From positions 1 through 52,910 of the forward strand of contig JBKPNV010000024.1 of the NCBI GenBank assembly GCA_046732795.1: a DNA stretch of 52,910 nt, read 5' to 3'. How positions within the stretch are numbered: position 1 is the first letter of the stretch; every line of letters begins with the position of its first letter. The notes under the pieces are model-generated. The model did not search any database and was not told where the DNA came from. It worked only from the letters and a program-made list of their open reading frames with translations. This document shows, piece after piece, positions 2,291 through 43,275 of this stretch. This stretch comes from Acidobacteriota bacterium (lineage in GTDB: Bacteria; Acidobacteriota; Vicinamibacteria; Vicinamibacterales; UBA2999). The position numbers and the translations under genes are program-made.

Positions 2291-3640
2291 CTACTGCAGA
2301 GAACTCCGCGCCGGTTGCCCCTCGACGGTGTACGTGAAGAAGCCGATCATCATCTCCTCCCACGTCTGATCGCCCCAGCGCACCACCTTCGTCGGATCCG
2401 GGTTGCTTCGATTCGCAGTGGAGTTGTCGAAGTGCGCGCGGACGTGTAGCTTCGAGCCCTTCGGTAGCGTGAGCGGTTCCGCCAACCAGTAGTCGGTCTG
2501 CCAGCCGAAGTCAAACTTCGGAACCCGCAGCACGACTTCGTTGCGACCATCAGGGTAGATGGCGGTGTAGGTCATGTCCTTGCCGCGGAGATGCATGTGC
2601 GGATGCATCGTCCAGATTCTGACGTCCTCGCCGAAACTCGCCTCCGCCTCGACCTCGTGGTTGGCAGCGCCCGCGGGAATCGCAAACACGGGGTTGGCGA
2701 TTATGCCGGTGCGAATCTCCTGGCGAGGCGGTTCTTTCGCGAAGATCAGGCCGATGCGCGAACGATCGACACCCGGCTTGCCGTTCGTCGTGTAATGCAC
2801 TTGAAAGATCAACGTCGAGCCGGCAGGGATCCGTTTCGCAGTACCGGCCAGATAAACCGGAGCGTCCTCGCCGACGGCCCAATTCACCAGCATGGCATCG
2901 CCACCACCGGGCGCCGCCGAGCGTGCCGATGCGTCCGTGGTTGCCGGCTCGCGCGCCGGCGGCGGCACAGGTGGGGCCACGCCGGCGGGCAGAATCGGCC
3001 TGATCCTGACAACGCTCGGGCGAGCACTCGGCTTTGGTTCCCTCACGTAAACGATGATGTGATGGACGTGAGCGCGATCACCCGCGCGGACCTCACCCGC
3101 CTGCATCCACCGATCCTCGGTGAAGTTGGTCGGGACCTCGAAGTACTGATAGTCGATCGTCCCGGTCGCGGGTATCTGATAGTCGGCCTGCATCTCGAAC
3201 ACGCGATCGGGCGTGCCAATCTGCCAGCCCTCAGGGAACTTCGGCAGTGCGGGAAGATCGGATGGATTGCCTTCGCTCGCGCCGCCAGCCACCCAGCTCG
3301 CAATGGTGTCGATCTCTCTCTGCGTGAGGCTGAGATCGTTGCGGAAGGATCCGTATTGTCTGTCGGCGTGCCACGGCGGCATGACCCGCGTCGTCACCTT
3401 CTCGCGGATCGCGCTCGCCCATGGCCGTGCATCGCGGTACGTGATGAGCGACATCGGCGCGACTTCGCCAGGACGATGGCAGCCGACGCACTTGTTATAG
3501 AAGATGGGCGCGATGTCCCGGCTGAACGTCGGCGATGCGGCGCTCTGTGCGGCCACACCGCCGCTGAGCGCCAGCGCCCCCGCGCCCGAGAGAGCAACTG
3601 CCACGAGGAACACAACCTGGCGAAGGCTGTCAGGTCTCAT
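2291..3640 (-). CDS. Exported heme c + copper type II (PHM/DBH-like) monooxygenase-family protein
   Basis: Signal peptide; CVGCH and MPPW; HVHH, QVHY, HPHMH, EEMM match the CuH/CuM ligand order. ATG3640 lies 4 nt after the upstream stop. Confidence 0.75.
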   Translation of the reverse strand: MRPDSLRQVVFLVAVALSGAGALALSGGVAAQSAASPTFSRDIAPIFYNKCVGCHRPGEVAPMSLITYRDARPWASAIREKVTTRVMPPWHADRQYGSFRNDLSLTQREIDTIASWVAGGASEGNPSDLPALPKFPEGWQIGTPDRVFEMQADYQIPATGTIDYQYFEVPTNFTEDRWMQAGEVRAGDRAHVHHIIVYVREPKPSARPSVVRIRPILPAGVAPPVPPPAREPATTDASARSAAPGGGDAMLVNWAVGEDAPVYLAGTAKRIPAGSTLIFQVHYTTNGKPGVDRSRIGLIFAKEPPRQEIRTGIIANPVFAIPAGAANHEVEAEASFGEDVRIWTMHPHMHLRGKDMTYTAIYPDGRNEVVLRVPKFDFGWQTDYWLAEPLTLPKGSKLHVRAHFDNSTANRSNPDPTKVVRWGDQTWEEMMIGFFTYTVEGQPARSSLQ

Positions 3641-3644
3641 CGAT

Positions 3645-5507
3645 CTACTCCGGGCCGAAGGCCAGTAACACGTTTCCGGGTCTGCTGCCAAACGCCCCGT
3701 ATCCCGAGTTGACGAACACCATACCACCGGCGACGACGGCACCAGGGCCGATCATCGAGGCACCTCTCGCTGGCACCCCGTTGACCGTGGTGAATTCGCG
3801 ATTGCTGTCGAATTCCCACAGCACTTCGCCGGTTGAGGTCGAATACGCCCGCAAGGAGCCATCGTTGGATCCCGAGAATACGGCGCCGGCGATGGCGGTC
3901 ACGGCCGCCGACTGTGCGCCATTGCACCCGGGCACGGAACCGCAGGTCGGTGCAGGTGGCGGTGTAAACCAGGCGCGCGTCCCGGTCGTGAGATTGACGG
4001 CGTGAAGACCTCCCGGCTGCTTGGTCTGGATGTCCGACACCGCGAAGTAGGCGTGCTCGCCATCAGTCGCCGCGCCCCACTCGATTCCACCAAGCGCGCT
4101 GCCCAGCCCGGCGCGATACTGCCAGAGGATCTCCCCGTTCTTCTCGGGGTCCATCGCGAACGCCACACCCGACTTCTGTCCAATCACAATCACGTCCCGG
4201 CCACCAGCGCGCGCAAGCACCGGCGGACTCCCGAAGTCGAAATCGGGACCGACTGATTCGGGGCAATTGGGATTGCCTGCCCGACAGCTGGAGATGTACA
4301 CATCGTTCGCTGTGACCTGCCGCGTCCAGCGAATCGCGCCCGTCGCAAGATCCAATGCGACGACGGCGTCGCTCGAAGACGTGGCCGGTGCACTGTAGGC
4401 GTTCCCGGTCGCCACATAGAGGAGACGACGATTCGCATCGATGGTCGGCGCCGACCAGACGCCCGCGCCTGACGGCCCCCACAACGGAACCCCGGCACCA
4501 CTCGTGCCTCGCCGCTGCGGCGTCTCCGGGATCATGTATGTCTTCCACTCGACGGCACCCGACTCGGCATCGAGCGCAGAAATGCTTCCGCGGAACGAAC
4601 AGCACGGGTACTGCGGATCGGCGCCCTGGGCCTCTTCATAGGAAGACACAGGCACGTAGAGCCGGCCCTCGAAGAACGTCGGTGACCCGGTAATGCGAGC
4701 CGACGGGTGATCGTCGACGCGACGCACCCAGAGCCGGCGGCCGGTCTCCGCATCGAGGGCGTACGCGTTCGCCGCTGTGTCGGCGAAGTACACGACCAGG
4801 CGCGAGCCGCCCGCGGGCGCTACGGCGAGCGCGGTGCGGACACCTCCTGACGCGCTGAAGGTCCAACGGACGCACCCTGTCTTCGCGTCGAGCGAATAGA
4901 CGGTGCCGTTCTGACTGCCGATGAACAACCGGCCCGCGGCCACAGTCGGATGGGACCACGCGACCGATGCATCGGGAAAACCGAAGGCCCACTTCAGTCT
5001 CAATCGCTGCAGATCGGCTGGCGTCAGTCCCGCGCCGTCTGCCGGCTGAAAGCGCGTGTTCGTGGTCGAGGGGCTCCATCCAGTCCATTGCGGCGTTTTC
5101 GCAAAGTCCTCGAGAGGCTCCGGCGTGCTGCAACGTCCGGTCTGCGCTCCAGTGACGTCGCCGGCAATCGCCTTCCCGGTGATGAACTCGGCCACCGCGC
5201 GACGTTCGGCCCCGCTGAGGCGCGAGCCTTGCGGGCGCATCGCGCCAGTCAGCAGACTGTCGATGATGGATTGGGGAGTGCGGGGACGGAGTGTGTCGAG
5301 ACTTGGGGCCCGCGAGTCCGTTGCTCCCGTGTGACAGGTCGCGCAGGACGATTGAAATACCCGGGCGCCATCGGGCGATTGCGCCAACGCAACTGACGCA
5401 CACGCCAGAACTGCACCGCATACAAGAACCGGTCGCAGCAAGGCCGGTGCGGGCGCGACGAAGCCTTTCGCCACACCGCGCCGACCGCGAACGGTGCGCC
5501 TCGTCAT
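3645..5507 (-). CDS. Quinohemoprotein, polyvinyl-alcohol dehydrogenase-like (N-terminal cytochrome c + PQQ propeller)
   Basis: Signal peptide, CATCH, L.LKWAFGFP, CCSFRG, GPSGAGVWS, PDFDFG, A.D..TG..W Trp-docking repeats, GNVLLAF C-terminus. Confidence 0.85.
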   Translation of the reverse strand: MTRRTVRGRRGVAKGFVAPAPALLRPVLVCGAVLACASVALAQSPDGARVFQSSCATCHTGATDSRAPSLDTLRPRTPQSIIDSLLTGAMRPQGSRLSGAERRAVAEFITGKAIAGDVTGAQTGRCSTPEPLEDFAKTPQWTGWSPSTTNTRFQPADGAGLTPADLQRLRLKWAFGFPDASVAWSHPTVAAGRLFIGSQNGTVYSLDAKTGCVRWTFSASGGVRTALAVAPAGGSRLVVYFADTAANAYALDAETGRRLWVRRVDDHPSARITGSPTFFEGRLYVPVSSYEEAQGADPQYPCCSFRGSISALDAESGAVEWKTYMIPETPQRRGTSGAGVPLWGPSGAGVWSAPTIDANRRLLYVATGNAYSAPATSSSDAVVALDLATGAIRWTRQVTANDVYISSCRAGNPNCPESVGPDFDFGSPPVLARAGGRDVIVIGQKSGVAFAMDPEKNGEILWQYRAGLGSALGGIEWGAATDGEHAYFAVSDIQTKQPGGLHAVNLTTGTRAWFTPPPAPTCGSVPGCNGAQSAAVTAIAGAVFSGSNDGSLRAYSTSTGEVLWEFDSNREFTTVNGVPARGASMIGPGAVVAGGMVFVNSGYGAFGSRPGNVLLAFGPE

Positions 5508-5577: not shown

Positions 5578-5943
5578 TCAGACGCCGGTGATTGGACCAA
5601 AGCTTCGAATCGCCGCCTCCTCGTCATGGAAAATCTCGAACACCGTCGTCAGCTTGGTGATGTCCATCAGGTGGTCGGTGCGCTCGGTCGGGTGCAGGAT
5701 CTTGAGCACGCCACCTCCCCGCCTTGTAGTGAGGTATTTACTGACCAACATTCCGATTCCGGCGCTATCGAGTCGTATCACTTCCTTCATGTCGAGCACC
5801 AGCTTGACGCGGCCGGCTTCGACAAGACCGTTCACGGCGTCGCGCAGGATGACGTCGCCGTCCTCGAGCTCGAGCCGGCCAATCAATTGGAGAATCGTGA
5901 CGTCGCCGATTCGACGTTCAACTATCCGCATTCGCGTGCCCAC
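5578..5943 (-). CDS. STAS-domain anti-sigma-factor antagonist (RsbV/SpoIIAA-like)
   Basis: LVLDMKEV..LDSAGIG.LV with the phospho-Ser; ITKL..VFEIF..EE.A C-terminus. Confidence 0.9.
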   Translation of the reverse strand: MGTRMRIVERRIGDVTILQLIGRLELEDGDVILRDAVNGLVEAGRVKLVLDMKEVIRLDSAGIGMLVSKYLTTRRGGGVLKILHPTERTDHLMDITKLTTVFEIFHDEEAAIRSFGPITGV

Positions 5944-6070
5944 GATTTACCCCCACACCTCGCTTGTGTCGGTGATTTCGCCCACGCTCGTCCTGAGTGA
6001 GACCGCCCGTGTATCACCGTGAGTGTGACCGAGGCCCTCCAATACAAGCGAGCGACTGTGTAATGCCCCC

Positions 6071-6934
6071 CTACTTGTCCCCTCCATCGTCCAGATACTT
6101 GATGAGCAACACCTCGTTGCGCGCTTCGTTGTAGATCAGATCGTCTACCAGCGAGAGCGTCATGGCCAGCCCGAACCCGCCGGGGCGAAGTCCCTGCGCC
6201 TCTCGCACAGACAGATGGTGCATCGGGTCGTCGTCGGGGTTCATGATTGCTGCGTGACGCAGCTTGTCGATGTCGAATCCCTCGCCCGGATCGGCGATTC
6301 GGTACAACAGCATCCGCGGCGTCCGCACGCACGCGATGCGCACCGTGCGATTGGGATCGAGCTTGCCACCCCACTCGATTGCGTTGGTCAACAACTCTCT
6401 GAACGCCTGCGCCACCGCCTCGCGAACAGCCTCCGAGAGATCGGCTTCCAGTTGCATGACGAACGACTGGATGCGTTCGGCCACCTCGAGGGTGCACGGC
6501 GCCACAAGCTCGAGCCACTCGGCCTTGGCGGAGATCACCTCGATCGACAAGGCTGACGTGGGTGGCGCCGCCTCGTTGACGACTTCCACGATCGCGTTTG
6601 GCGGGAACGGCTTTCGCAGGTAGCGGTAGGCCTGACGGCGAACGGCTTCGAGCAGCGTCGCCGAAGTGTCGTCGGCGGTCATGACGATGACCAGGGGCGG
6701 CGACGGCAGTTCGCGGACGCGTGCGAGTACGTCGAGTCCGCTCATACTGGGAAGCCCGATGTCGAGCAGAACCAGATCGAACGAGGAGCCCTGGCCCAAC
6801 ATTTCGAGCGCTTCGGGGCCGTCGCCAGCCGACTCGACCCGATGACCGGCCGCCTGGAGCAGTGCCGACAGGACGTGCCGGAGTCCGCGATCGTCGTCGA
6901 CGAGGAGAATGCTGTGATGTCTGGGCTGGGCCAT
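6071..6934 (-). CDS. Receiver domain fused to RsbW-like (HATPase_c_2) Ser kinase/anti-sigma domain
   Basis: ILLVDDD, LLDIGLP, MTA, KPF; then ELLTNAIE.G, IADPGEGFD, GGFGL, YNE..NE. Start taken at ATG6934. Confidence 0.85.
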   Translation of the reverse strand: MAQPRHHSILLVDDDRGLRHVLSALLQAAGHRVESAGDGPEALEMLGQGSSFDLVLLDIGLPSMSGLDVLARVRELPSPPLVIVMTADDTSATLLEAVRRQAYRYLRKPFPPNAIVEVVNEAAPPTSALSIEVISAKAEWLELVAPCTLEVAERIQSFVMQLEADLSEAVREAVAQAFRELLTNAIEWGGKLDPNRTVRIACVRTPRMLLYRIADPGEGFDIDKLRHAAIMNPDDDPMHHLSVREAQGLRPGGFGLAMTLSLVDDLIYNEARNEVLLIKYLDDGGDK

Positions 6935-7139
6935 CGCGAGTCTCTCGCTCGGAATCCGCGATCCAGTAGTGTAATGCTGGCTGCGTTGGACCGCTATGCG
7001 GCTCGTTGAGTAAATCGTCTGCTCTTTAGTGAGCCGCGCGGCGGTCCGCAAGCGCCCGGAGCGCGCCAAATGATACTGGCGATCAGCCACGAATCCGTCG
7101 GGAACAGCGGATTGTCTGGCTGGCACGTGAGGTGAACTG

Positions 7140-10016: not shown

Positions 10017-10050
10017 GGCAGCGGAGGCGCCGGAGAGAACGGCTAACCGA

Positions 10051-12597: not shown

Positions 12598-12640
12598 GAC
12601 ACTTGCAGCTGGACCGCTATGCAGTTCTCTCCGAGACGCT

Positions 12641-12656
12641 TGCACTCGCCGTTCCA
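12641..12656 (-). promoter_or_regulatory. Candidate sigma54 promoter for mprF
   Basis: TGGAAC-GGCGA-GTGCA, GG-N10-GC spacing, about 44 nt upstream of the ATG. Confidence 0.4.
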
Positions 12657-12740
12657 CCGCATCGCGGTCCCCGGCGCGCAAAGCGCGCCGAAAAGACGCT
12701 GTCGAACCAGCTAAGGGCTTCGTAATGTTCAAAAAAAGAT

Positions 12741-13526: not shown

Positions 13527-13544
13527 GCGTCTCCATCCGTTGTC

Positions 13545-13594
13545 GTCGTGTCCGACGTGAGCCCGACATCGTCGTGTCCGGCCTCAGCCGAACC
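13545..13594 (+). repeat. Tandem degenerate GTAG-type REP copies (family F)
   Basis: GTCGTGTCCGACGTGAGCCCGACA and GTCGTGTCCGGCCTCAGCCGAACC resemble consensus GTAGYGTCCGGCTTCAGCCGGACC. Confidence 0.55.
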
Positions 13595-13610
13595 CTGTGG
13601 ACAGCGGAAC

Positions 13611-13633: not shown

Positions 13634-13649
13634 CGTCCCACCCGGTTCG

Positions 13650-16287: not shown

Positions 16288-16293
16288 TGCTCA

Positions 16294-36161: not shown

Positions 36162-36170
36162 TAGCGGACC

Positions 36171-36316
36171 ATTGTTGATTCCGGGATTTTTGATCGTTCA
36201 TTCGTTGGTGATTGGAGATTGTCGATCGTTGATTGAGAAGGCGCGCGGCACCATTCAATAATCGGAAATCACCAATCGATAACGATTCAACAATCAAAGA
36301 TCGTGAAATCAACAAT
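36171..36316. repeat. AT-rich palindromic AATCAAC/GATTGTT element, family D copy 1
   Basis: Terminal IR ATTGTTGATT / AATCAACAAT; 22 of 23 nt shared with 44880-44902. Confidence 0.8.
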
Positions 36317-36740
36317 GAGAGAGCGCCACTTCGCCTGCTGCCTATTGCTGGTCGCGAGTTGCCTGATATCTGCGGCGGCACAGCAACGAACGGTGTGGGA
36401 CGGGGTGTACACCGATGCGCAGGCCGAACGTGGTGGTATGGCGTATCAACAAGCCTGTGTCGCTTGCCACCGCGACGACCTCCGCGGCGACAACACCGCG
36501 CCCAGCCTCGTCGGCGAGAGCTTCACGTTTCTCTGGGGCGACATGGAGGTTGGCGAGTTGGCCGCGAAAATCCAGAAGCTGATGCCGCCGGAACGCCCGG
36601 GAAGCTTGCCTGCCCAGGCCTACTCCGACATCATCGCCTTCATCCTGAAAAAGAATGCCTTTCCCCCCGGAGCCACCGAGCTCAGCGCGGATGCCGACGC
36701 CCTTCATATCCTTATCACTGCTACCAAGCCGGTGAAATAG
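36315..36740 (+). CDS. Class I cytochrome c
   Basis: Signal peptide, TVWDGVYT..QA.RG, CVACH, MPP..PGSL; paralog of 21317-21739. Confidence 0.88.
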   Translation: MRERHFACCLLLVASCLISAAAQQRTVWDGVYTDAQAERGGMAYQQACVACHRDDLRGDNTAPSLVGESFTFLWGDMEVGELAAKIQKLMPPERPGSLPAQAYSDIIAFILKKNAFPPGATELSADADALHILITATKPVK

Positions 36741-36788
36741 AGGGGCCCGCGACCCCGCCCATAGTAGTTGGGAGTTGGAAGTTGGGAG

Positions 36789-36916
36789 TTGTAGTATTGC
36801 CGGACCGAACTACACTGCCGCTCGCCTGTGCCTGGGGGACTCCGGGCCAAAGTCACGCTGACATCATGGCCTGTCTCACTCAGGACAGCGTTGGCGAAAT
36901 CAGCGGCACAAGCGAG
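36789..36916 (+). promoter_or_regulatory. Promoter (TTGTAG-16-TACACT) followed by a multi-stem 5' leader
   Basis: -10 at 36811-16; closing stem 36821-31 / 36906-16 encloses several hairpins. Confidence 0.45.
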
Positions 36917-36932
36917 TTCGTGGAGTAAACAG

Positions 36933-38684
36933 ATGCGCCATCACTCACGGAAGCTGACGACGTCAACCTGCCTTGTCGTACTTGTCGCGTCCGCCATCAC
37001 GCTGTCCGGCCAGTACTCGCTCACGGTCAACAAGGACCGGCTGATCAATTCGGACAAAGAGCCGCAGAACTGGCTGCTGATGAACGGCGACTACGGCTCG
37101 CTGCGCTACTCGAGGCTCACGCAGATCAACCGCGACAACGTCAAGAACCTGCGCATGGTGTGGGCGATGGCGCTCGGCGGGATGCAGGACGTCGGGCAGA
37201 ACGGTCCCGAGAACGAGATCAATCCGCTCATCGACAACGGTTTCATGTACACGAGCGACGGCTGGGGCACGATCTACAAGATCGACGCTCGCGACCCGAA
37301 TCGTGGCAAGTTCGTCTGGGTCGCAGACCCCGGCGTGCCGCATGAGGGCAACGCTTCGCGGACGCGCGGCATCGCGCTGTGGGAAGACAAGGTGCTGGCC
37401 AACCTGCCCGACGGCCGCGTCATCGCCATCAACCGCGAGAACGGCGAGATCGTCTGGGACAAGAAGATCGCCGTGAAGAACGAGTTCGGCGGCCAGGAGC
37501 GGCTCTCGGCCGCACCGCTCGTCGCCGATGGCAAGGTGCTCATCCAGAACGGCGCCGGCGACGCTGGCACACGCGGCTGGGTTGCCGCGCTCGACGTGAA
37601 CACCGGCAACGAGCTGTGGCGCTGGTACACCGTGCCCAAGCCGGGCGAGCCCGGCAGCGAGACGTGGAAAGACGATCACAACGCGTGGAAAACCGGCGGA
37701 GGCGGCGTCTGGCAGACCGGCTCGTACGATGCGGCACAGAACCTGTACATCTTCGGTACCGGCAATCCCGTCCCCATTTACGATCCGCAGTTCCGTCCCG
37801 GCGACAATCTCTACACCAACTCTGTCGTCGCGCTGAACGTGGCCACCGGCAAGATGGCGTGGTACTTCCAGTACACGCCGAGCGACTCGTGGGATTACGA
37901 CGAGGCCGGCGTGTTCATGCTCTACGACACGACGCTGGGCGGACGGGCGCGGAAGGTCGTGGGCCATTACGCGCGCAACGGCTTCTTCTATACGGTGGAC
38001 CGCACCAACGGCCGGTTCATCGCTGCCGAGAAGTACGTGAACGATCTCAACTGGACCAAGGGCATCGATCAGGAAACCGGCAAACCCGTCGACTACAACC
38101 CGAAACTCGACGTGCAGGTCTACAACCCGGAAGCGCGCGCGCTGCGCGGCGATCCCAAGAAGCGCACCTGCCCGACCTGGCACGGCGGTGTCGCGCATCA
38201 GCCGATGGCCTACAACCCGGTGAAGAAGATCGCGTATGGCGTGGGGACCGAGGGCTGCTTCTCGCAGAACGGCGCCGCTGTTGGCGTGTTGTCGAAGGAT
38301 GGGGGCATGGACAACAAGAACAGCCAGCAGCGGCAGTACAGCAGCGACTTGTACTACGGCTCGCTGACCGCGTTCGACGCGGTGAATCACAAGGTGCTGG
38401 CGAAGGCAATCACGGAAATCGAGATTCGATCCGGCGCGCTGGCGACGGCCGGCGGTGTGGTGTTCACCGCGCTGCAGGATGGCTGGGTCGTGGCCTACAA
38501 CGACGAGACGCTCGAGGAGCTGTGGCGCTTCAACGTCGGCACGCCGCTCAAGGGCGCGCCGGTCACGTACGCAATCGGGCCGAAGCAGTACCTCGCCGTG
38601 CAGGCCGGCGGCCGTCACCTGCATCCCGTGAACTGGGACAAGCTGGAGAATTCAAGCTACCTGTTCGTGTTCGCGTTGAATTGA
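36933..38684 (+). CDS. Exported PQQ-dependent methanol/ethanol-dehydrogenase-like protein
   Basis: GGAG RBS; EPQNWL..GDY...RYS.L.QIN..NV.NL, W.TGSYD, GTGNP, RPGDNLYT, WDYD, RNGFFY, CP, APVTY. Confidence 0.9.
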   Translation: MRHHSRKLTTSTCLVVLVASAITLSGQYSLTVNKDRLINSDKEPQNWLLMNGDYGSLRYSRLTQINRDNVKNLRMVWAMALGGMQDVGQNGPENEINPLIDNGFMYTSDGWGTIYKIDARDPNRGKFVWVADPGVPHEGNASRTRGIALWEDKVLANLPDGRVIAINRENGEIVWDKKIAVKNEFGGQERLSAAPLVADGKVLIQNGAGDAGTRGWVAALDVNTGNELWRWYTVPKPGEPGSETWKDDHNAWKTGGGGVWQTGSYDAAQNLYIFGTGNPVPIYDPQFRPGDNLYTNSVVALNVATGKMAWYFQYTPSDSWDYDEAGVFMLYDTTLGGRARKVVGHYARNGFFYTVDRTNGRFIAAEKYVNDLNWTKGIDQETGKPVDYNPKLDVQVYNPEARALRGDPKKRTCPTWHGGVAHQPMAYNPVKKIAYGVGTEGCFSQNGAAVGVLSKDGGMDNKNSQQRQYSSDLYYGSLTAFDAVNHKVLAKAITEIEIRSGALATAGGVVFTALQDGWVVAYNDETLEELWRFNVGTPLKGAPVTYAIGPKQYLAVQAGGRHLHPVNWDKLENSSYLFVFALN

Positions 38685-38697: not shown

Positions 38698-38907
38698 ACG
38701 GGGAAACGGATCACCGGAGCAACGAAGACGCGGGAGCACCAACGGCGCCGCCATGCCGGTGGCGCGCTTCGCGCGGCTTGGATATAGCATCGTCGCATCA
38801 CGAGCCTGCAGTCGATCGCGTAAGGCTTGTGAGTTGCGGTGACGCTCTATTCGTCGGCCGGCCGAGGCCGGTGGTCAGCCATGTCCTCCGCCATCTCCGT
38901 TACCTCG
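38698..38907 (+). repeat. About 200-nt structured non-coding element, family G copy 1
   Basis: ACGG-periodic left end, CTCCG-periodic right end, internal long hairpin TCACGAGCCT / AGGCTTGTGA. Confidence 0.55.
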
Positions 38908-38924
38908 ACGACGAGGAGAGCCAC

Positions 38925-39545
38925 ATGAAGCCGATTATCCTGCTCGCATTCATGGCCGTATTCGCCGGTCACGCACAAGCCCAGGATCGCATGCCGCCGG
39001 TTCCGGCGGAGAAGATGACTGATGCGCAGAAGAAAGCAGTCGCCGACTATAAGGCTCTTCGCAATACCGATCTCACCGGCCCACCGTGGACCGTCCTCCT
39101 GCGCGTTCCCGATCTCGTGGTGCCATCGTTGCAACTCCGCCTCCACAATCAGCAGAACAGCGCGCTCAGCCCGAAGCTCACCGAGATGGCGATCCTGATT
39201 GCGGCCCGGCACCTGACGAACAGCTTCGAATTCAACGCGCATTACACGCTCGCCGTGAAAGCCGGTCTGAGCGCCGACGTCATCGCGGCGGTCGCGGAAG
39301 GACGGCGGCCCGAGCACATGGGGGAGGACGAGGCGATCCTTCACGATTTCTGCGTCGAGCTCCTCCAGAACAAGGCCGTCAGCGATGGAACCTATGCGCG
39401 GGCACTCGGCAAGTTCGGCGAAGCGGGCGTCGTCGAAGCCGCCAGCCTCCAGGGGTACTACACGTTCCTCGCCATGGTGATGAACGTGGCGCGATCGCCT
39501 TCGCCCGCGAACGCGACACAAACGCTCCTGCCCTACGTGAGATAG
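38925..39545 (+). CDS. Exported CMD/AhpD-like protein
   Basis: AGGAG RBS, signal AQA|QDRMPP, GPP...LLR.P, L.E.AIL.AAR.....EF..H...A..AG, GYY. Confidence 0.8.
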   Translation: MKPIILLAFMAVFAGHAQAQDRMPPVPAEKMTDAQKKAVADYKALRNTDLTGPPWTVLLRVPDLVVPSLQLRLHNQQNSALSPKLTEMAILIAARHLTNSFEFNAHYTLAVKAGLSADVIAAVAEGRRPEHMGEDEAILHDFCVELLQNKAVSDGTYARALGKFGEAGVVEAASLQGYYTFLAMVMNVARSPSPANATQTLLPYVR

Positions 39546-39561
39546 TCCACCACACTGCGAC

Positions 39562-41154
39562 ATGTCGATCAGATTCGCGCACGCGCGCGCCTTCGTCAGC
39601 GCTGTCGTCGCGTTGGCGACGATGTCGAACGGCGGCACCGCGCAACAGCACGCGGCGGAACCGCTATGCGGCTCGCTGCTTGAATGCTGCACTGGTTGTG
39701 ACTCGCATGGCGGTGCGGGGCGCGCGGCGCGTCCCACGAGATCGTGGCAACCAGCCATGGGCCCTGGGGGCTTGTCAGCCGCTCAGCCCTTGGCTGGTTT
39801 CGACGGCTATTTCAGCGACAAGACCATGCGGGTCGATTACTTTCACTCCGGTGGCCTGGGACAGGAGATTGTCGCGCTCGATCGGGTCGTGTCCGACGGC
39901 CCGTGGCCGGGCAGCCGCACGCGCCTGGTGGATGACACCAATCTCGGCAAGTATCTGTTCGAGGTGATCGATCGCGGTTCGAACCTCGTGATCTACTCGC
40001 GCGGCTTCGCGTCGATCTACGGCGAGTGGGAAACGACGGCGGAATACAAGACGCTGCACCGTACGTTTCCGGAGTCGCTGCGATTTCCGTGGCCGAAGCA
40101 GCCCGTACAAGTCGTGCTGAAGAAGCGCGATGCCGGGAACAGCTTCCGCGAGATCTGGTCAACCGTCGTCGATCCTGCCTCGCGCTTCGTGAATCCAGCC
40201 GACCTGCCGTCAGCAGGGAAGCTCTGGACTGTCTTCGAAAACGGTCCGGCGTCGACGAAGGTGGATCTTCTGGTCCTCAGTGAGGGCTACGCCGCCGATC
40301 AGATCGACAAGTTCCATGCCGACGTCAACCGCCTCGTGACTCGCCTGTTCGAATACGACCCGTTCAAGTCGCGGCGCGCCGATTTCAACGTGCGGGCGCT
40401 CGATCTTCCCTCCCCGCGCTCAGGCGTCAACCGCGCGCGGGCGCAATCGTTCCGGCGGACGCCACTGTCGGTCGAGTTCAACATCTTCGACAGCGAGCGC
40501 TACGTGCTCACCTACGACGATCGCACGCTGCGCAACATCGCGTCCTCGGCGCCCTATGAATTCATCGAAGTGCTGGTGAACGAAGAGCAGTACGGTGGAG
40601 GCGGCATCTTCAACTTTCAAGCCACGGCTTCGGTCGATCACGCCTACGCCGAGTACGTATTCGTGCACGAGTTCGGTCACCATTTCGCGGGACTGGCAGA
40701 CGAGTACTACACGTCTGACGTCGCGTACGAGACCGGCGCCGCCGAACACGTCGAGCCGTGGGAGCCAAACGCAACCGCAATGCACGATCCCTCTCGCCTG
40801 AAATGGCGCGACCTCGTCGAATCAGGCACGCCGCTGCCCACGCCGTGGGAAAAGGAGTCGTACGAGAAACAGAGCCGCGACTCGCAGGCACGCAGACGGA
40901 AGCTGCTTGCGTCCAATGCGCCGCAGTCGGAGATCGACAAGCTATTCCGCGAAGAAGAGTCGTGGTCGACGAAACTGCTCGGCGGAATGAAGTTCGCCGG
41001 GAAGGTCGGCGCCTTCGAAGGCGCATCGTACGAGGCCAAAGGGTTGTACCGGCCCGAGGCGGACTGCATCATGTTCACCCGCGACCCGGTCGGATTCTGC
41101 CGCGTGTGCCGCCGCGCGATCGAGCGCATCATCGACCTCTACGCGCGACCGTAG
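39562..41154 (+). CDS. Peptidase M64 (IgA peptidase) family metalloprotease
   Basis: F...TMRVDY.H.G, YGGGGI, HEFGHHFAGLADEY, EPWEPN, FEGA.Y...G.YRP..DC.M...FC.VC. Confidence 0.9.
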   Translation: MSIRFAHARAFVSAVVALATMSNGGTAQQHAAEPLCGSLLECCTGCDSHGGAGRAARPTRSWQPAMGPGGLSAAQPLAGFDGYFSDKTMRVDYFHSGGLGQEIVALDRVVSDGPWPGSRTRLVDDTNLGKYLFEVIDRGSNLVIYSRGFASIYGEWETTAEYKTLHRTFPESLRFPWPKQPVQVVLKKRDAGNSFREIWSTVVDPASRFVNPADLPSAGKLWTVFENGPASTKVDLLVLSEGYAADQIDKFHADVNRLVTRLFEYDPFKSRRADFNVRALDLPSPRSGVNRARAQSFRRTPLSVEFNIFDSERYVLTYDDRTLRNIASSAPYEFIEVLVNEEQYGGGGIFNFQATASVDHAYAEYVFVHEFGHHFAGLADEYYTSDVAYETGAAEHVEPWEPNATAMHDPSRLKWRDLVESGTPLPTPWEKESYEKQSRDSQARRRKLLASNAPQSEIDKLFREEESWSTKLLGGMKFAGKVGAFEGASYEAKGLYRPEADCIMFTRDPVGFCRVCRRAIERIIDLYARP

Positions 41155-41313: not shown

Positions 41314-41322
41314 ACTCTCTGC

Positions 41323-43275
41323 TCACGGCAGGCTCAGCGCCACATATTCCGCGGCGTGCTCGCGAGATCCAATCGCAACAACGATGTACTGCTTGCCGCG
41401 GAACATGTAGGTCATCGGCGCCCCCGTGGTGCCGGCGGGCAGCTCGGTTTCCCACAGCACTTGCCCGGTCGCCTTGTCATAAGCGCGAAACTCACGTCCA
41501 CCAGCACCAGGAGCCAATGAAAGCGGCATGCTCTTTGGTGTGCGCTCCGGCGCCGCCATGATCGGATCGCCTTCGCCCACGAACAGCAGGGTCTTCGTCG
41601 CCAGCGGAGAGCTGCGACCCGGGTTTCCGAGCGGCGGCAACTTGAGCGGCTTGAGTAGCGGGTGGTCGCGCGGACCATCACCGTTCGCGACCATCCACGC
41701 GATCGTTCCCTTGTTGAGATCGATTGCTGTGATGCGGCCGTACGGCGGCTTGAGTAGCGGAAGGCCCATTGGCGCCGGTGGGTACTCGCGCGTGCCGCGA
41801 GTGAACGTCAGATTCGTCTTTGCCGCATCACCTGGAATGATGTCGGCCACGAACGGACCGGTGATTGACTGCACGTACAAGAAACCAGTGTCGGGATCGA
41901 AGGCGCCGCCCTGCCAATCGGCGCCGCCGACCGAACCTGGCAGCTGAATCGTGCCTTTGGTGTCGTTCGGCCCAGGTCCCTTGATCGAGGGTGGCGTGAA
42001 CAACGGGCCGATGACGTAGTGCTTGACGATATCGAGCGCGGCGGCACGCAGTTCCGGCGTGAAGTCGATGAGATCGTCGACGGTAACGCCTTGTCGGTCG
42101 AACGCCGGTGGCTTCGTCGGGAAGGGCTGGGTCGCCGCTGTCTGCTCACCGGGCGTCTTCGACTGTGGCACGGGCCGATCTTCGATCGGCCACACGGGCT
42201 GACCCGTGGCGCGATCGAAGACGAAGGCAAACGCCTGTTTCGTCAACTGCACCACGGACCGGATGCGCCGGCCGTCGACGGTGATGTCGGCGAGAATCGG
42301 CGCCGCCGGCAGGTCGTAGTCCCACAGATCGTGACGTACGAGCTGGTAATGCCACACGCGCTTTCCCGTCTGGCACTCGACGGCGATCAGCGTGTCCGAG
42401 AACAGATTGTCGCCGGGACGATGGCCGCCGTACATGTCGCTCGTCGGACTGGTGAGCGGCAGGTACGCGTACCCGAGCTGCTCATCGACGCTGATGAGCG
42501 ACCAGAGGTTGGCATGTCCCGTGTACTGCCACGAGTTGTCCTTCCATGTATCGACGCCGAACTCTCCGCCGCGCGGGACGACATGAAACGTCCAGCGCAG
42601 TTGCCCGGTGCGAACGTCGTAGCCCCTCACGTCGCCCGGGGTTCCCTCCTTGCGCGGCGGCGAGTCGCTCATCGACGCGCCAACGATGACGACGTCCCGG
42701 CACACGCGTGGCGCGCCACTCCACGAGTACGGGTCCTTGTCTGAACCCAGATGCAGATTGACGGCGCCGGCGGTGCCGAACGTCGAATACGGCTGTCCGG
42801 TCTTTGCGTTCAACGCGATCAGGCTCTCGCCGCGCTGCACGAAAATCCGTTCGTCGCTCGCGTCGCGCCAAAAGGCGACACCGCGGGTGCTGGTGCCGCG
42901 CAAAGCGTCCGGACCGGCTCCGGGCTCCTGAATCCAGATCGTCTTGCCCGTGCCCGGATCGAACGCCTCGACGAGGCCGACGCCGTTCGGCGAATACAGC
43001 ACCCCGCCGATCATCACCGGCGTCGCACGGAAGTTGTTCTGCACTTGCAGCTTCGGATCTTTTCCGCTGAGCAGCGGATCGACGGCGGGGCGCCGCCACG
43101 CGATCCGGAGATTCTTCACGTTGGCGCGATTGATCTGATCGAGCGGTGCGTATTTCGTGCTGCCCGCGTCCCCGCTGTGGCTTCGCCACTCGCCATTCTC
43201 GGTTTGCGCGCCTGCAGCGCCGCTCAGACACAGGCATGTCGCCAGAACCATCGAGGTCCATCGAAGATGTTTCAT
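41323..43275 (-). CDS. Exported PQQ-dependent glucose-dehydrogenase-family protein
   Basis: KYAPLDQI, ATP, RGVAFW, HDLWDYD, GGADW.G, KPPYG, PMTY...GKQY. Confidence 0.9.
   Translation of the reverse strand: MKHLRWTSMVLATCLCLSGAAGAQTENGEWRSHSGDAGSTKYAPLDQINRANVKNLRIAWRRPAVDPLLSGKDPKLQVQNNFRATPVMIGGVLYSPNGVGLVEAFDPGTGKTIWIQEPGAGPDALRGTSTRGVAFWRDASDERIFVQRGESLIALNAKTGQPYSTFGTAGAVNLHLGSDKDPYSWSGAPRVCRDVVIVGASMSDSPPRKEGTPGDVRGYDVRTGQLRWTFHVVPRGGEFGVDTWKDNSWQYTGHANLWSLISVDEQLGYAYLPLTSPTSDMYGGHRPGDNLFSDTLIAVECQTGKRVWHYQLVRHDLWDYDLPAAPILADITVDGRRIRSVVQLTKQAFAFVFDRATGQPVWPIEDRPVPQSKTPGEQTAATQPFPTKPPAFDRQGVTVDDLIDFTPELRAAALDIVKHYVIGPLFTPPSIKGPGPNDTKGTIQLPGSVGGADWQGGAFDPDTGFLYVQSITGPFVADIIPGDAAKTNLTFTRGTREYPPAPMGLPLLKPPYGRITAIDLNKGTIAWMVANGDGPRDHPLLKPLKLPPLGNPGRSSPLATKTLLFVGEGDPIMAAPERTPKSMPLSLAPGAGGREFRAYDKATGQVLWETELPAGTTGAPMTYMFRGKQYIVVAIGSREHAAEYVALSLP

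What the first reader, a model, noticed from the sequence alone, without database searches (positions are those of the whole stretch)
2291..43275. About 40-kb cluster of exported PQQ / cytochrome c / copper / orphan-family proteins that may be one modular periplasmic oxidation system
Seen: 6 PQQ enzymes, 2 paralogous cytochromes c (each between two PQQ genes), 2 heme-Cu monooxygenase copies, 5 WGDPDL-family proteins, a DUF6152-like protein and 2 CMD-like proteins, nearly all with signal peptides. One same-strand run is CMD-WGDPDL-PQQ-cytc-PQQ-CMD (31892-39545). No pqq biosynthesis genes are in the window. Inference: a recurring parts list for oxidising diverse organic compounds, with the orphan families as unrecognised catalytic or metal/cofactor-handling partners.
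Basis: partly seen in the sequence, partly recalled or inferred. Interest (0 to 1): 0.78.

Follow-up and report, generated by a model that had tools for sequence, protein, structure and literature searches.

The report
Quinoprotein operons beside an unnamed secreted family
This stretch is a real hot spot of exported enzymes in a soil acidobacterium, but it is several separate gene modules, not one machine; the most interesting is a conserved, uncharacterised pairing of a huge unnamed protein family with a small protein of unknown function called DUF6152.

Summary
The parts list is real. Window 2291-43275 holds 17 genes of these families among 31 called genes. Label shuffles gave at most 8 and block-keeping shuffles at most 14.

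It is probably not one system. About 11 kb in the middle is regulators and lipid genes. PQQ and W (the "WGDPDL" family) genes are direct neighbours no more often than chance (5 against 2.4). Within five genes they are only about twofold enriched. The heme-Cu family pairs with nothing. Only 1 of 12 same-genus genomes keeps the sampled 20 kb collinear.

Three kinds of unit stand up:
- **PQQ dehydrogenase, cytochrome c, PQQ dehydrogenase operons.** These are a known kind. PQQ is probably scavenged, because the 93%-complete genome has no pqqB/C/E above cut-off.
- **A W-long, W-short, DUF6152 triad (28909-31739).** DUF6152-W adjacency is 35 against 2.1 in this genome and 28 of 30 loci in five other genomes. 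The two families co-occur in the same 13 of 151 sampled Acidobacteriota genomes. A widespread fusion protein joins them.
- **CMD-W neighbours.**

W has no Pfam, NCBIfam or PDB match. It is modelled as a calycin-like barrel and is the largest paralog family here (122-201 copies). DUF6152 is modelled as an OB fold with a His-His mature N-terminus. Function is inferred, not shown.

The parts
2291..3640 (-). Intact heme-Cu monooxygenase-like protein (N-terminal CxxCH, C-terminal PHM-like domain), directly downstream of the PQQ-like/cyt c fusion
   Evidence: Pfam Cu2_monoox_C 19 bits and Cytochrome_CBB3 18.6 bits, both below cut-off. 14 paralogs genome-wide. No PDB sequence match.
3645..5507 (-). 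PQQ-like beta-propeller with an N-terminal monoheme cytochrome c domain
   Evidence: PQQ_2 98.8 bits, PF01011 97.5 bits (partial), Cytochrome_CBB3 40.1 bits. CATCH at residue 55. Six close paralogs in the genome. The same architecture sits 38 bp upstream of the W triad in G002.
5578..16736 (.). Unrelated insert: STAS anti-sigma antagonist, response regulator/HATPase, hybrid histidine kinase, MprF, VirJ-like hydrolase, DUF5666, OmpR/HK pair, small secreted protein
   Evidence: Pfam and NCBIfam. None belongs to the families in question.
17067..17954 (-). SnoaL-like protein without a signal peptide, 9 bp downstream of W1
   Evidence: PF07366 88.6 bits. Collinear with W1 in G160.
17964..18989 (-). 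W1, WGDPDL-type W protein
   Evidence: No Pfam, NCBIfam or PDB hit. AlphaFold2 pLDDT 86, calycin/FABP-like barrel.
19233..23748 (-). Operon PQQ dehydrogenase (21823-23748), cytochrome c (21317-21778), PQQ dehydrogenase (19233-21245); gaps 44 and 71 bp
   Evidence: PF01011 662.8 and 612 bits; Cytochrome_CBB3 40.6 bits. Soluble glucose/quinate-type by TIGR03074, 378-442 bits, below the 832 cut-off, with no membrane domain.
25357..26484 (-). W2, WGDPDL-type W protein
   Evidence: Motif and family membership.
26480..27405 (+). Degraded heme-Cu copy: frameshift between the signal peptide part and the CxxCH part, C-terminal copper domain missing
   Evidence: Frame analysis and tblastn, which covers residues 83-343 of 483 only. 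One RNA-library contig of a relative has one extra base behind 26634.
27480..28970 (+). 496-aa polytopic membrane protein with a Cys-rich C-terminus, convergent on DUF6152; single copy in the genome
   Evidence: Weak NQR2_RnfD_RnfE hit, 22.4 bits, below cut-off. One copy. Kept next to DUF6152-W3-W4 in G160, G155, G159 and G165.
28909..29343 (-). DUF6152: OB-fold protein with His-His at the predicted mature N-terminus and an NPH motif
   Evidence: PF19649 109.7 bits. Model pLDDT 83, SSB/PriB-like OB fold Z 8-9. Invariant H6, H7, N32, P33, H34.
29445..30413 (-). W3, W-short type (RPNLSGIW in place of WGDPDL); partner type most often next to DUF6152
   Evidence: Alignment A3. 21 of 58 W3-like paralogs lie next to DUF6152, against 9 of 48 W1-like.
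30570..31739 (-). W4, W-long (WGDPDL) type; with W3 and DUF6152 it forms the conserved triad
   Evidence: The triad W-short/W-long/DUF6152 is seen in eight other genomes.
31889..34209 (+). Exported double-CMD protein (31889-33055) overlapping W5 (33052-34209) by 4 bp
   Evidence: PF02627 28.3 bits. CMD-W adjacency is 4 against 0.32 in shuffles.
34362..38684 (+). Operon PQQ alcohol-dehydrogenase type (34362-36161), cytochrome c (36303-36740), PQQ alcohol-dehydrogenase type (36828-38684)
   Evidence: PF01011 210 and 215 bits. TIGR03075 387 and 432 bits (cut-off 480). D-x-D motifs HDMD and WDYD.
38778..41154 (+). Exported CMD-like protein (38778-39545) and M64 peptidase (39562-41154), same strand
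   Evidence: PF02627 23.3 bits; Peptidase_M64 371 bits. M64 is single copy in the genome.
41323..43275 (-). Sixth PQQ dehydrogenase (soluble glucose/quinate type), standing alone
   Evidence: PF01011 603.8 bits.

Best explanation
The 41-kb stretch is a genuine, unusually dense hot spot of exported paralogs in a Vicinamibacterales-type acidobacterial genome. It is a mosaic of separate transcription units rather than one system.

(1) Two PQQ-cyt c-PQQ operons work like classical periplasmic quinoprotein dehydrogenase/cytochrome c pairs. The substrate is oxidised at PQQ and electrons pass to a small soluble class I cytochrome c. PQQ is taken up from outside, because the genome lacks pqq biosynthesis genes. 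These steps are inferred.

(2) W4, W3 and DUF6152 (28909-31739) are one copy of a conserved triad.
- W is an unnamed family modelled as a calycin-like beta-barrel. It has a conserved pair of cysteines and an otherwise variable interior.
- DUF6152 is modelled as an OB fold. Its mature N-terminus is His-His, and a third invariant His sits in an NPH motif.
- I read this as a small-molecule-binding scaffold (W) working with a metal centre of the histidine-brace kind (DUF6152).
- In single-copy genomes the triad sits beside two DUF6644 membrane proteins and a lipoprotein with a C-terminal CxxCH. This points to electron exchange with the membrane.
- The family has multiplied to 122-201 copies here, presumably giving substrate-specific variants.

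(3) CMD1-W5, W1-SnoaL and the PQQ-like/cyt c fusion with heme-Cu 1 are further small units.

Shown: the gene pairings, their conservation, the fusion protein and the predicted folds.
Inferred: metal binding, ligand binding, any redox role, and any link to the PQQ enzymes.
For: Hot spot:
- 17 of 31 genes, against a shuffle maximum of 8 and a block-shuffle maximum of 14.

Mosaic:
- 5578-16736 is unrelated.
- PQQ-W direct adjacency is 5 against 2.4, reached in 43 of 500 shuffles.
- The heme-Cu family shows no association.
- Only G160 of 12 same-genus genomes keeps the queried 20 kb (window 17000-36900) collinear. G155 keeps DUF6152 through the second cytochrome. Other genomes keep only PQQ-cyt, or membrane protein-DUF6152-W3-W4.

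W-DUF6152 pairing:
- 31 of 43 DUF6152 ORFs lie within 500 bp of a W (null 1.9).
- Adjacency is 35 against 2.1, and 33 against 2.06 without this contig.
- 35 of 37 adjacent pairs are on the same strand, with gaps often -4 to 60 bp.
- 28 of 30 DUF6152 loci in five other genomes have a W within 1.5 kb.
- W was found in 13 of 151 sampled genomes. DUF6152 was found in those same 13 plus one weak hit.
- A fusion family exists. The best 120 hits are all about 370 aa at 96-100% coverage and carry PF19649. The DUF6152 domain is N-terminal in 12 of 12 checked.

Folds and motifs:
- W1 model pLDDT 86, with Z 9.9 to 7.7 to nanoKAZ, FABPs and nitrobindin.
- DUF6152 model pLDDT 83, OB fold Z 8-9.
- The HH...[N/T]PH pattern is in 39 of 43 paralogs. 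Alanine precedes HH in 38 of 39.

Core context:
- Two DUF6644 genes and a C-terminal CxxCH lipoprotein lie next to the triad in 4 of 4 genomes examined.
- 4 of 8 DUF6644 loci in this genome are next to W or DUF6152.

PQQ supply:
- No pqqC match, and pqqE and pqqB only below cut-off, in a 93%-complete genome.
- PMC12124388 (passages read) reports PqqU importers in Vicinamibacteria without PQQ biosynthesis.
Against: - The region is still far denser than any null, and 20 kb of it is collinear in G160. Some selection for keeping the modules together cannot be excluded.
- W and PQQ genes are about twofold enriched within 5 and within 10 genes, also outside this contig.
- All 13 W genomes have PF01011, against 32 of the other 138.
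- In G002 a PQQ-like/cyt c fusion lies 38 bp upstream of the triad on the same strand.
- The metal-site and ligand-binding readings rest on motifs and predicted folds only.
- Known histidine-brace proteins (recalled: CopC, LPMO, YcnI) have other folds.
- Within the WGDPDL subfamily many polar residues are at least 90% conserved (E210, R216, E270, H317, E318, N320). This would fit an enzyme better than a passive binder.
- My gene calls are crude (a GC3-based caller), and the genome is a 429-contig draft with N50 18.7 kb. This hides long-range clustering elsewhere.
Confidence: 0.6

Rival explanations
1. The whole stretch is one modular periplasmic oxidation system, in which W, DUF6152, CMD and heme-Cu proteins are catalytic or cofactor-handling partners of the PQQ dehydrogenases.
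For: - Density is beyond every shuffle.
- W-PQQ pairs within 5 genes number 27 against 9.8, and 18 against 8.5 without this contig.
- All 13 W genomes carry PF01011, and they have the highest first-look PQQ candidate counts, 39-300.
- The queried 20 kb (window 17000-36900) is collinear in G160, and 8 kb (DUF6152 to the second cytochrome) in G155.
- A PQQ-like/cyt c fusion is next to the triad in G002.
- In G073 one PQQ gene lies about 200 bp from a DUF6152.
Against: - Direct PQQ-W adjacency is at chance.
- DUF6152 near PQQ within 500 bp is 0 of 43.
- The heme-Cu family is associated with nothing.
- 11 kb of unrelated genes lie inside the range.
- The triad has no PQQ neighbour among the genes scanned in G055, G069 and G134.
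- W outnumbers PQQ 2.5- to 4-fold.
- 11 of 12 same-genus genomes do not show the queried 20 kb as one block. Many are fragmented drafts, so this point is weak.
Confidence: 0.2
2. W is a greatly expanded periplasmic solute-binding or receptor family serving uptake or sensing. It would work like the Bug/TctC expansion of Betaproteobacteria (recalled analogy). DUF6152 would be an accessory, with no redox chemistry and no tie to PQQ enzymes.
For: - W is the largest paralog cluster in the genome (201 of 4802 called genes).
- Across the superfamily only structural residues are invariant: Pro, Gly, Trp and two Cys.
- The fold is calycin-like.
- Neighbours within 3 genes are enriched for MFS transporters (10 against 3.0), LysR regulators (4 against 1.1), MetE-like, NAD-binding dehydrogenases, and CarboxypepD_reg-domain outer-membrane proteins (27 against 16).
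Against: - The conserved core holds a c-type heme lipoprotein and His-bearing membrane proteins, not a transporter of a known type.
- DUF6152's invariant His triad suggests a metal centre.
- The WGDPDL subfamily keeps many polar residues.
- One W is fused to a Glyoxalase/VOC domain: P0210, 1 of 10 long forms scanned.
Confidence: 0.15
3. The clustering is a by-product of family abundance and has no meaning.
For: - The families are very abundant: W 122-201, PQQ 47-51, DUF6152 43-45, cyt 18-19, heme-Cu 12-14 copies.
- The contig was picked after the fact and is the fourth longest of 429.
Against: - 17 of 31 genes, against a maximum of 8 in 1000 label shuffles and 14 in 1000 block shuffles.
- The pairings were reproduced without this contig and in other genomes.
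Confidence: 0.05

Closest known systems
Quinoprotein alcohol/methanol dehydrogenase with its cytochrome c (ExaA/ExaB, XoxF/XoxG; ExaA/ExaB recalled, XoxG/XoxJ from passages of PMC10875860)
   Same: - An eight-bladed PF01011 propeller with a signal peptide lies next to a small monoheme class I cytochrome c on the same strand.
- The D-x-D motif, which in the methanol/ethanol family marks the extra lanthanide-binding Asp, is present in 34362-36161 and 36828-38684 (PMC10875860 passage; abstract of 10.1101/2020.02.25.964783 in the listing).
   Different: - Two dehydrogenases flank one cytochrome.
- No XoxJ-like gene was seen.
- Scores lie below the NCBIfam subfamily cut-offs: TIGR03075 387-432 against 480, TIGR03074 377-442 against 832.
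- Three are soluble versions of the membrane glucose/quinate type.
- The genome has no pqq biosynthesis genes above cut-off.
Periplasmic metal-binding proteins with an N-terminal histidine (CopC with CopD, YcnI, LPMO histidine brace) and the OB-fold copper chaperone CusF (all recalled)
   Same: - DUF6152 is exported and small.
- It keeps His at the first mature position plus a second distant His.
- It is an OB-type barrel like CusF.
- In its core context it sits beside small His-bearing membrane proteins, as CopC sits with CopD.
   Different: - No sequence similarity to any of these.
- CopC, YcnI and LPMO have other folds.
- CusF uses Met/His/Trp, not an N-terminal His.
- Metal binding is untested.
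- The obligatory partner is W, which has no counterpart in those systems.
Calycin superfamily (FABPs, lipocalins, nitrobindin/THAP4, Rv2717c)
   Same: The W1 model's barrel aligns to nanoKAZ (Z 9.9, 123 residues, rmsd 3.3), to LBP-8 and CRBP-IV (Z 9.2) and to nitrobindin (Z 7.7). Foldseek top hits are FABP/CRABP/SAHS.
   Different: - W is twice as long, with a conserved N-terminal WGDPDLQG strand, long helical insertions, a C-terminal helix and a conserved Cys pair.
- Identity to the hits is 6-18%.
- There are no sequence-level hits.
- Z values of this size can reflect a common barrel only.
Peptidylglycine alpha-hydroxylating / dopamine beta-monooxygenase copper domain (PF03712)
   Same: The C-terminal domain of 2291-3640 hits Cu2_monoox_C. 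It shows HH...H and HxH...M patterns like the two copper sites. The ligand pattern is recalled; the residues are visible.
   Different: - The hit is below cut-off (19 against 23 bits).
- The protein carries an N-terminal c-type heme domain.
- There is no PDB sequence match.
Bug/TctC-type paralog expansions of periplasmic binding proteins (recalled)
   Same: A single exported family makes up a few percent of all genes, scattered and often next to LysR, MFS and catabolic genes.
   Different: The fold is unrelated. The partner genes are not a tripartite transporter. W's conserved partners are DUF6152, DUF6644 and a c-type heme lipoprotein.

Membership tests
PQQ-dependent dehydrogenase, eight-bladed propeller (PF01011) | Full-length match to PF01011 above the gathering score | tested here: met
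   Five proteins score 210-663 bits over profile positions 1-595 (or in two stretches). The sixth (3645-5507) matches only partially at 97.5 bits.
PQQ-dependent dehydrogenase, eight-bladed propeller (PF01011) | NCBIfam subfamily cut-off (TIGR03075 methanol/ethanol, 480 bits; TIGR03074 membrane glucose/quinate, 832 bits) | tested here: not met
   387 and 432 bits for TIGR03075. 377-442 bits for TIGR03074, matching from profile position about 149 on, so without the membrane anchor.
PQQ-dependent dehydrogenase, eight-bladed propeller (PF01011) | A source of PQQ (pqqA-E, or import) | tested here: inconclusive
   TIGR02111 gave no match. TIGR02109 scored at best 77.5 bits (cut-off 381). TIGR02108 scored 35 bits (cut-off 245). 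The genome is 93% complete, and the pqqC control rang in no control genome. A PqqU importer was not searched for; PMC12124388 reports it in Vicinamibacteria.
acido-empty-quinoprotein group A (TIGR04528) | Score above the 650-bit cut-off | tested here: not met
   81-350 bits for the six proteins.
Lanthanide-type PQQ alcohol dehydrogenase (XoxF/ExaF-like) | Extra Asp two residues after the catalytic Asp (D-x-D) | tested here: met
   HDMD at 333 and WDYD at 356 in the two TIGR03075-like proteins. This is a motif only. The three glucose-type proteins also show D-x-D, where it is not diagnostic (recalled).
Quinoprotein dehydrogenase / cytochrome c operon | Monoheme class I cytochrome c with CxxCH next to the dehydrogenase on the same strand | tested here: met
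   CSMCH and CVACH proteins at 21317-21778 and 36303-36740. PF13442 scores 40.6 and 36.4 bits.
DUF6152 (PF19649) | Match above the 27-bit gathering score | tested here: met
   109.7 bits. 43-45 paralogs in the genome.
Histidine-brace type metal proteins | His at the first position of the mature protein plus a second conserved His | tested here: met
   A|HH follows a hydrophobic leader in 38 of 43 paralogs. HH...[N/T]PH is present in 39 of 43. These residues are invariant in alignment A2. The cleavage site is inferred, not predicted by a tool.
Histidine-brace type metal proteins | Fold of a known brace family (cupredoxin-like CopC, LPMO sandwich, YcnI) | tested here: inconclusive
   The model is an OB fold, with best matches SSB/PriB at Z 8-9. 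None of those families was listed.
Histidine-brace type metal proteins | Metal actually bound | not testable with these tools
   Needs purified protein. Copper is not among the ligands offered by complex prediction.
Calycin superfamily (FABP/lipocalin/nitrobindin) | Eight- to ten-stranded antiparallel barrel enclosing a ligand cavity | tested here: inconclusive
   Z 9.9-7.2 over 111-130 residues to FABP-like and nitrobindin chains. Foldseek E about 1e-3. No sequence signal. The cavity was not inspected because no coordinates were on hand.
Copper type II ascorbate-dependent monooxygenase (PF03712) | Match above the 23-bit gathering score | tested here: not met
   19.0-19.1 bits.
Carboxymuconolactone decarboxylase / AhpD-like (PF02627) | Match above the 23-bit gathering score | tested here: met
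   28.3 bits (31889-33055) and 23.3 bits (38778-39545). By eye, 31889-33055 has only one Cys, in its signal peptide, and 38778-39545 has no CxxC in its predicted mature part from MKPIILL on, so an AhpD-type CxxC thiol chemistry is unlikely.
Cytochrome c' (class II, PF01322), for the lipoprotein of the core module in other genomes | Match above the 26.5-bit cut-off; C-terminal CxxCH | tested here: not met
   20.3-20.4 bits in 3 of 4 proteins and 13.7 bits in the fourth. The C-terminal CxxCH is present in 4 of 4.

The most novel reading that the evidence does not exclude
W-long, W-short and DUF6152, together with two DUF6644 membrane proteins and a c-type heme lipoprotein in the ancestral arrangement, form a previously undescribed periplasmic, membrane-linked, metal-dependent redox system. 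Its soluble parts have been multiplied some 40- to 200-fold in Vicinamibacterales to act on many different small molecules. It would be a second large oxidative toolkit alongside, and loosely co-located with, the scavenged-PQQ quinoproteins.
Probability: 0.3. Interest if true: 0.82.

Novelty: new variant of a known kind. Interest (0 to 1): 0.6.

Why it matters
Vicinamibacteria and related Acidobacteriota are among the commonest soil bacteria, and little is known of what they live on. This genome spends about 1% of its genes on PQQ-type dehydrogenases for which it cannot make the cofactor.

It spends 2.5-4% of its genes on a secreted family with no name, no Pfam model and no solved relative. 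That family has 14,196 cluster representatives at 50% identity in public data.

Showing that the family is tied to DUF6152 by adjacency, co-occurrence and fusion turns two orphan families into one testable unit. It also gives a concrete first experiment: the metal content of mature DUF6152, and the ligands of W. If the unit proves to be a redox or metal system, it would explain a large share of the unknown periplasmic proteome of these soil bacteria.

Tried and rejected
- **Complex prediction** of W3 (residues 30-322) with DUF6152 (5-124). Eight hand-ins met a full queue or its waiting time. The job ran and returned 'no answer' with score 0.00. It is not evidence either way.
- **Promoter and terminator scan** of 17000-36900. 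It found 2 promoter-like and 10 terminator-like sites, at or below the shuffle means of 3.8 and 11.2, so it gave no help with unit boundaries.
- **Sequence searches for W.** Pfam to E 10 gave only chance hits. NCBIfam gave none. PDB by phmmer and by profile gave none better than E 0.17. The ESM Atlas gave only unnamed acidobacterial clusters.
- **DUF6152 profile against PDB.** Nothing better than E 0.57.
- **Literature.** No paper in the library holds DUF6152, DUF6644, PF19649, PF20349 or WGDPDL.
- **RNA evidence.** One rhizosphere metatranscriptome run held 7% of the sampled words. 229 of the 291 contigs laid were only 90-95% alike, so they come from relatives. Contigs cannot show transcription units or levels. 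They cover DUF6152, W3, W4 and parts of two PQQ genes among others. This is a hint that relatives' copies are present in an RNA library, no more.
- **Copy-number co-variation across genomes.** It could not be measured properly. The genome search scores only 8-30 candidates per genome, so only presence or absence and the loose first-look counts were usable.
- **First gene caller.** It missed known genes and was replaced.
- **Rejected idea:** that hemeCu and the PQQ-like/cyt c fusion form a recurrent pair. Only this one case among 14 heme-Cu genes lies within 500 bp of a PQQ gene.

Full report
**What is there**

The window is the whole of contig C24 of a 5.86-Mb, 429-contig draft genome (N50 18.7 kb, 93% complete, 1.5% contamination). 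Homologs carry the names Vicinamibacterales and Acidobacteria where any name is given.

Pfam and NCBIfam scans of the long ORFs, plus reading of the translations, give the gene map in the parts list.
- One of the six PQQ enzymes (3645-5507) is only a partial PF01011 match. It is fused to an N-terminal c-type heme domain.
- The second heme-Cu copy (about 26480-27405) is a remnant. Its signal peptide and its CxxCH part lie in different frames. tblastn with the intact copy covers residues 83-343 of 483 only.
- The fifth 'WGDPDL' protein (29445-30413) lacks the motif but belongs to the same superfamily.
- The name 'heme-Cu monooxygenase' rests on sub-threshold Pfam hits (19 bits against a cut-off of 23).

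Between 5578 and 16736 lie an anti-sigma antagonist, two two-component systems, MprF, a VirJ-like hydrolase and small secreted proteins. None has an evident tie to the rest.

**Is it more than chance?**

I searched the window's proteins with phmmer against all six-frame ORFs of the genome. The families proved very abundant at E <= 1e-8: W 122, PQQ 49, DUF6152 43, this type of cytochrome c 19, heme-Cu 14, CMD-like 6.

I made gene calls with a simple GC3-based caller, giving 4802 genes at 86% coverage. It misses a few known genes. All-against-all blastp on these calls puts W in the largest paralog cluster of the genome. That cluster has 201 members by single linkage, which may chain in some non-members. 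It is larger than the sigma-54 activators (78), the CarboxypepD_reg-domain outer-membrane proteins (77), MacB/FtsX (62), the Ser/Thr kinases (50) and PQQ (47).

Even so, the window stands out. 17 of the 31 genes called in 2291-43275 belong to the six families, where 1.6 are expected. This is the densest window in the genome, and the next contig has 8 of 22. In 1000 label shuffles the best window held 4.9 on average and 8 at most. In 1000 shuffles that keep runs of family genes intact, the figures were 8.3 and 14.

**Which families go together?**

I used random placement of ORFs (300 trials) and gene-order label shuffles (500 trials).

| Pair | Observed | Null | Notes |
|---|---|---|---|
| DUF6152 ORFs within 500 bp of a W | 31 of 43 | 1.9 | |
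| DUF6152-W, adjacent genes | 35 | 2.1 | 33 against 2.06 without this contig |
| W-W, adjacent | 17 | 3.0 | |
| CMD-W, adjacent | 4 | 0.32 | 2 against 0.19 without this contig |
| PQQ-cyt c, adjacent | 5 | 0.37 | 1 against 0.27 without this contig |
| PQQ-W, adjacent | 5 | 2.4 | reached in 43 of 500 shuffles; 3 against 2.0 without this contig |
| PQQ-W, within five genes | 27 | 9.8 | 18 against 8.5 without this contig, reached in 1 of 500 |

For PQQ-cyt c, the ORF-based count finds three more cases outside the window, on C188, C22 and C31; the C31 case is a single ORF matched by both families. The heme-Cu family is associated with nothing.

So there is a loose regional association of W with PQQ genes, but no gene-to-gene coupling. 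The tight coupling is between the orphan families themselves.

**The W-DUF6152 unit**

In this genome there are 37 adjacent W/DUF6152 gene pairs. 35 are on the same strand, in either order (18 W first, 17 DUF6152 first). Gaps are often -4 to 60 bp.

The pairing holds elsewhere.
- In five other genomes from four families, 28 of 30 DUF6152 loci have a W within the 1.5-kb flanks.
- In an even sample of 151 Acidobacteriota genomes, W was found in 13. DUF6152 was found in those same 13 plus one weak hit (E 5e-9). 137 genomes have neither. These 13 belong to four families, so they are not independent.
- In the seven genomes with a single DUF6152 (G002, G055, G069, G082, G130, G142, G098), and at one of the four DUF6152 matches of G134, the gene stands at the end of a row W-short, W-long, DUF6152 (coordinates).
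- A natural fusion exists in this genome, DUF6152 then W-short (C220:5137-6216). All 120 best database hits of this protein are about 370 aa, cover 96-100% of it and carry PF19649. In 12 of 12 checked, the DUF6152 domain is N-terminal. In the three whose sequences I read, a signal peptide ends in A|HH.

The window's W4, W3 and DUF6152 (31739 down to 28909, minus strand) are one copy of this triad, with the two W genes in the other order.

**What the proteins look like**

W:
- It has no hit in Pfam (to E 10), NCBIfam or PDB sequences, whether searched as a single sequence or as a profile.
- It has 14,196 cluster representatives at E <= 0.001 among 1.84 billion.
- A 109-sequence alignment gave an AlphaFold2 model of W1 with mean pLDDT 86.
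- The core is an antiparallel barrel. It aligns best to FABP-like and related calycins: nanoKAZ Z 9.9, LBP-8 and CRBP-IV Z 9.2, nitrobindin Z 7.7. The Foldseek top hits are FABP/CRABP/SAHS at E about 1e-3. Long helices are inserted. Z values of this size show a shared barrel, not kinship.
- Across the whole superfamily the invariant positions are a P-[DN]-[LF]-x-G-x-W stretch, two cysteines, G-x-W-[ED]-G and D-P.
- Within the WGDPDL subfamily many polar residues are at least 90% conserved, including E210, R216, E270, H317, E318 and N320.

DUF6152:
- The model has pLDDT 83 and is an OB fold, with SSB/PriB matches at Z 8-9.
- Its invariant residues are the His-His that follows the signal peptide, and an N-P-H motif about 27 residues later.
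- 39 of 43 paralogs have HH...[N/T]PH. Alanine precedes HH in 38 of these 39.
- A free N-terminal histidine together with a distant histidine is the hallmark of histidine-brace copper sites (recalled: CopC, YcnI, LPMOs). An OB-type periplasmic copper chaperone is known in CusF (recalled).
- That the domain is always N-terminal in the fusions fits a need for a free amino terminus.
- All of this is inference. No metal was or could be tested here.

**The wider context of the triad**

I fetched 18 kb around the single-copy triad in G002, G055, G069 and G134. In 4 of 4, the triad is flanked by three more genes.
- Two are DUF6644 genes (PF20349), with 3-4 predicted membrane helices and conserved histidines.
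- The third is a 154-175-aa lipoprotein ending in CxxCH. It gives weak, sub-threshold hits to cytochrome c' (20.3-20.4 bits in 3 of 4).

In 3 of 4 a beta-lactamase-family gene follows. In G002 a PQQ-like/cyt c fusion of the same architecture as window 3645-5507 lies 38 bp upstream on the same strand. Among the triad-flanking genes scanned in the other three genomes (11-12 per locus), no PQQ gene was found.

In the window's own genome, 4 of 8 DUF6644 loci are next to W or DUF6152. DUF6644 is enriched within three genes of W (11 against 2.8). So are MFS transporters, MetE-like proteins, NAD-binding dehydrogenases, CMD and LysR regulators.

The window's copy lacks DUF6644. It sits instead beside a unique 496-aa membrane protein. 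That protein stays next to DUF6152-W3-W4 in G160, G155, G159 and G165, and G165 belongs to another family.

**Conservation of the 40-kb arrangement**

I searched 20 kb of the window (17000-36900) as DNA against 20 relatives.
- One of 12 same-genus genomes (G160, contig C159) is collinear over the whole query at 81-88% identity.
- G155 keeps DUF6152 through the second cytochrome, about 8 kb.
- G159, G156 and G165 keep DUF6152-W3-W4; G159 and G165 also keep the membrane protein.
- The PQQ-cyt block occurs on its own in G157 and G162; in G158, G152 and G154 only PQQ-gene pieces were listed, and in G154 on separate contigs.

Many of these genomes are fragmented, so missing collinearity is weak evidence. 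The picture is still one of blocks that travel separately. G158 is an unpublished genome and contributes one listed PQQ-block match. G049, also unpublished, is one of the 45 genomes counted for PF01011.

**The PQQ part**

The two alcohol-dehydrogenase-type enzymes carry D-x-D (HDMD, WDYD). In that family the motif marks the extra aspartate needed for lanthanides (PMC10875860 passage; abstract of 10.1101/2020.02.25.964783 in the listing). The three glucose/quinate-type enzymes lack the membrane anchor. They presumably pass electrons to the adjacent soluble cytochrome, which is inference.

The genome gave no pqqC match, and only sub-threshold radical-SAM and metallo-beta-lactamase hits for pqqE and pqqB. 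The pqqC control rang in none of the 14 control genomes, so that search is weakly validated.

Passages of PMC12124388 report that PqqU importers occur in Vicinamibacteria. They also report that acidobacterial PqqU holders lack PQQ biosynthesis. This makes scavenging the likely source. I did not search for PqqU here.

Passages of PMC10875860 report that acidobacterial xoxF3 clusters hold XoxG, XoxJ, cytochromes and several conserved 110-130-aa hypothetical proteins. Whether any of those is DUF6152 could not be checked, because supplements were closed.

**Verdict**

It is probably not one 40-kb system.
- The PQQ-cytochrome operons are ordinary members of a known kind.
- The orphan families are real, and they form their own conserved unit: W-long, W-short and DUF6152, joined in the ancestral form by DUF6644 and a heme lipoprotein. 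Its chemistry is unknown.
- My committed reading is a ligand-binding calycin scaffold working with a histidine-brace-like metal centre in a membrane-linked redox process.

| Reading | Rough odds |
|---|---|
| W and DUF6152 act together | 0.9 |
| DUF6152 binds a metal | 0.5 |
| The unit does redox chemistry | 0.35 |
| It serves the PQQ enzymes directly | 0.2 |

The complex prediction gave no answer. It counts for nothing either way.

Noticed in passing
window 26480-27405 (+): The second heme-Cu gene is broken. The signal peptide and 'VTFTKDVAPILQ' lie in one frame and the CxxCH part in another, and the C-terminal copper domain is absent. One RNA-library contig of a 90-95% relative shows one extra base behind 26634, near the frame change. 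This could be a true pseudogene or an assembly error.
   Followed up: partly
whole genome G000: The unnamed W superfamily is the largest paralog cluster of the genome. It has 201 of 4802 called genes by single-linkage blastp and 122 by phmmer. It is larger than the sigma-54 activators, TonB-type receptors, MacB permeases and kinases.
   Followed up: yes
G000 C220:5137-6216 (L032:1-1077:+) and C97 (L023:473-2116:-): Two natural fusions. One is DUF6152 joined to W-short; this is a widespread family of about 370 aa. The other is a tandem W-W protein of 548 aa.
   Followed up: partly
protein P0210 (587 aa): A W domain at residues 299-586 is preceded by a Glyoxalase/VOC dioxygenase-superfamily domain at 163-274. 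The ESM Atlas also listed a cluster with 22% Glyoxalase at score 0.82. This is a lead that some W proteins act on small aromatic or keto compounds.
   Followed up: no
window 27480-28970 (+): A single-copy 496-aa polytopic membrane protein with a weak RnfD/NqrB-like stretch and a Cys-rich C-terminus. It stays next to DUF6152-W3-W4 in at least four other genomes, including one of another family. It is a possible membrane partner of this triad copy, in place of DUF6644.
   Followed up: partly
L071-L074 (G002, G055, G069, G134): A conserved neighbourhood of the single-copy triad. It holds two DUF6644 membrane proteins and a lipoprotein with a C-terminal CxxCH (weakly cytochrome c'-like). In 3 of 4 it also holds a beta-lactamase-family protein.
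   Followed up: partly
window 43586-46279 (+): Two adjacent phosphofructokinase paralogs (PF00365, 178 and 153 bits), just outside the finding.
   Followed up: no
window 49163-52910: A glycerol set: an MIP channel on the minus strand, divergent from glycerol kinase (FGGY) and an FAD glycerol-3-phosphate dehydrogenase/oxidase that runs off the contig end.
   Followed up: no
window 10051-13526 (-): MprF-type lysyl-phosphatidylglycerol synthase (934 aa), followed by a VirJ-like alpha/beta hydrolase. Their ORFs overlap as called.
   Followed up: no
window 17067-17954 (-): A SnoaL-like protein without a signal peptide, with a Cys-rich C-terminal tail. It lies 9 bp downstream of the exported W1, and the pair is collinear in G160. 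A cytoplasmic protein apparently co-transcribed with an exported one is unexplained.
   Followed up: no
G073:C1:2931832-2934151: In a complete genome of the same order, a PQQ dehydrogenase lies about 200 bp from a DUF6152 that has no W within 1.5 kb. This is an exception to the W-DUF6152 rule and a rare direct PQQ-DUF6152 contact.
   Followed up: no
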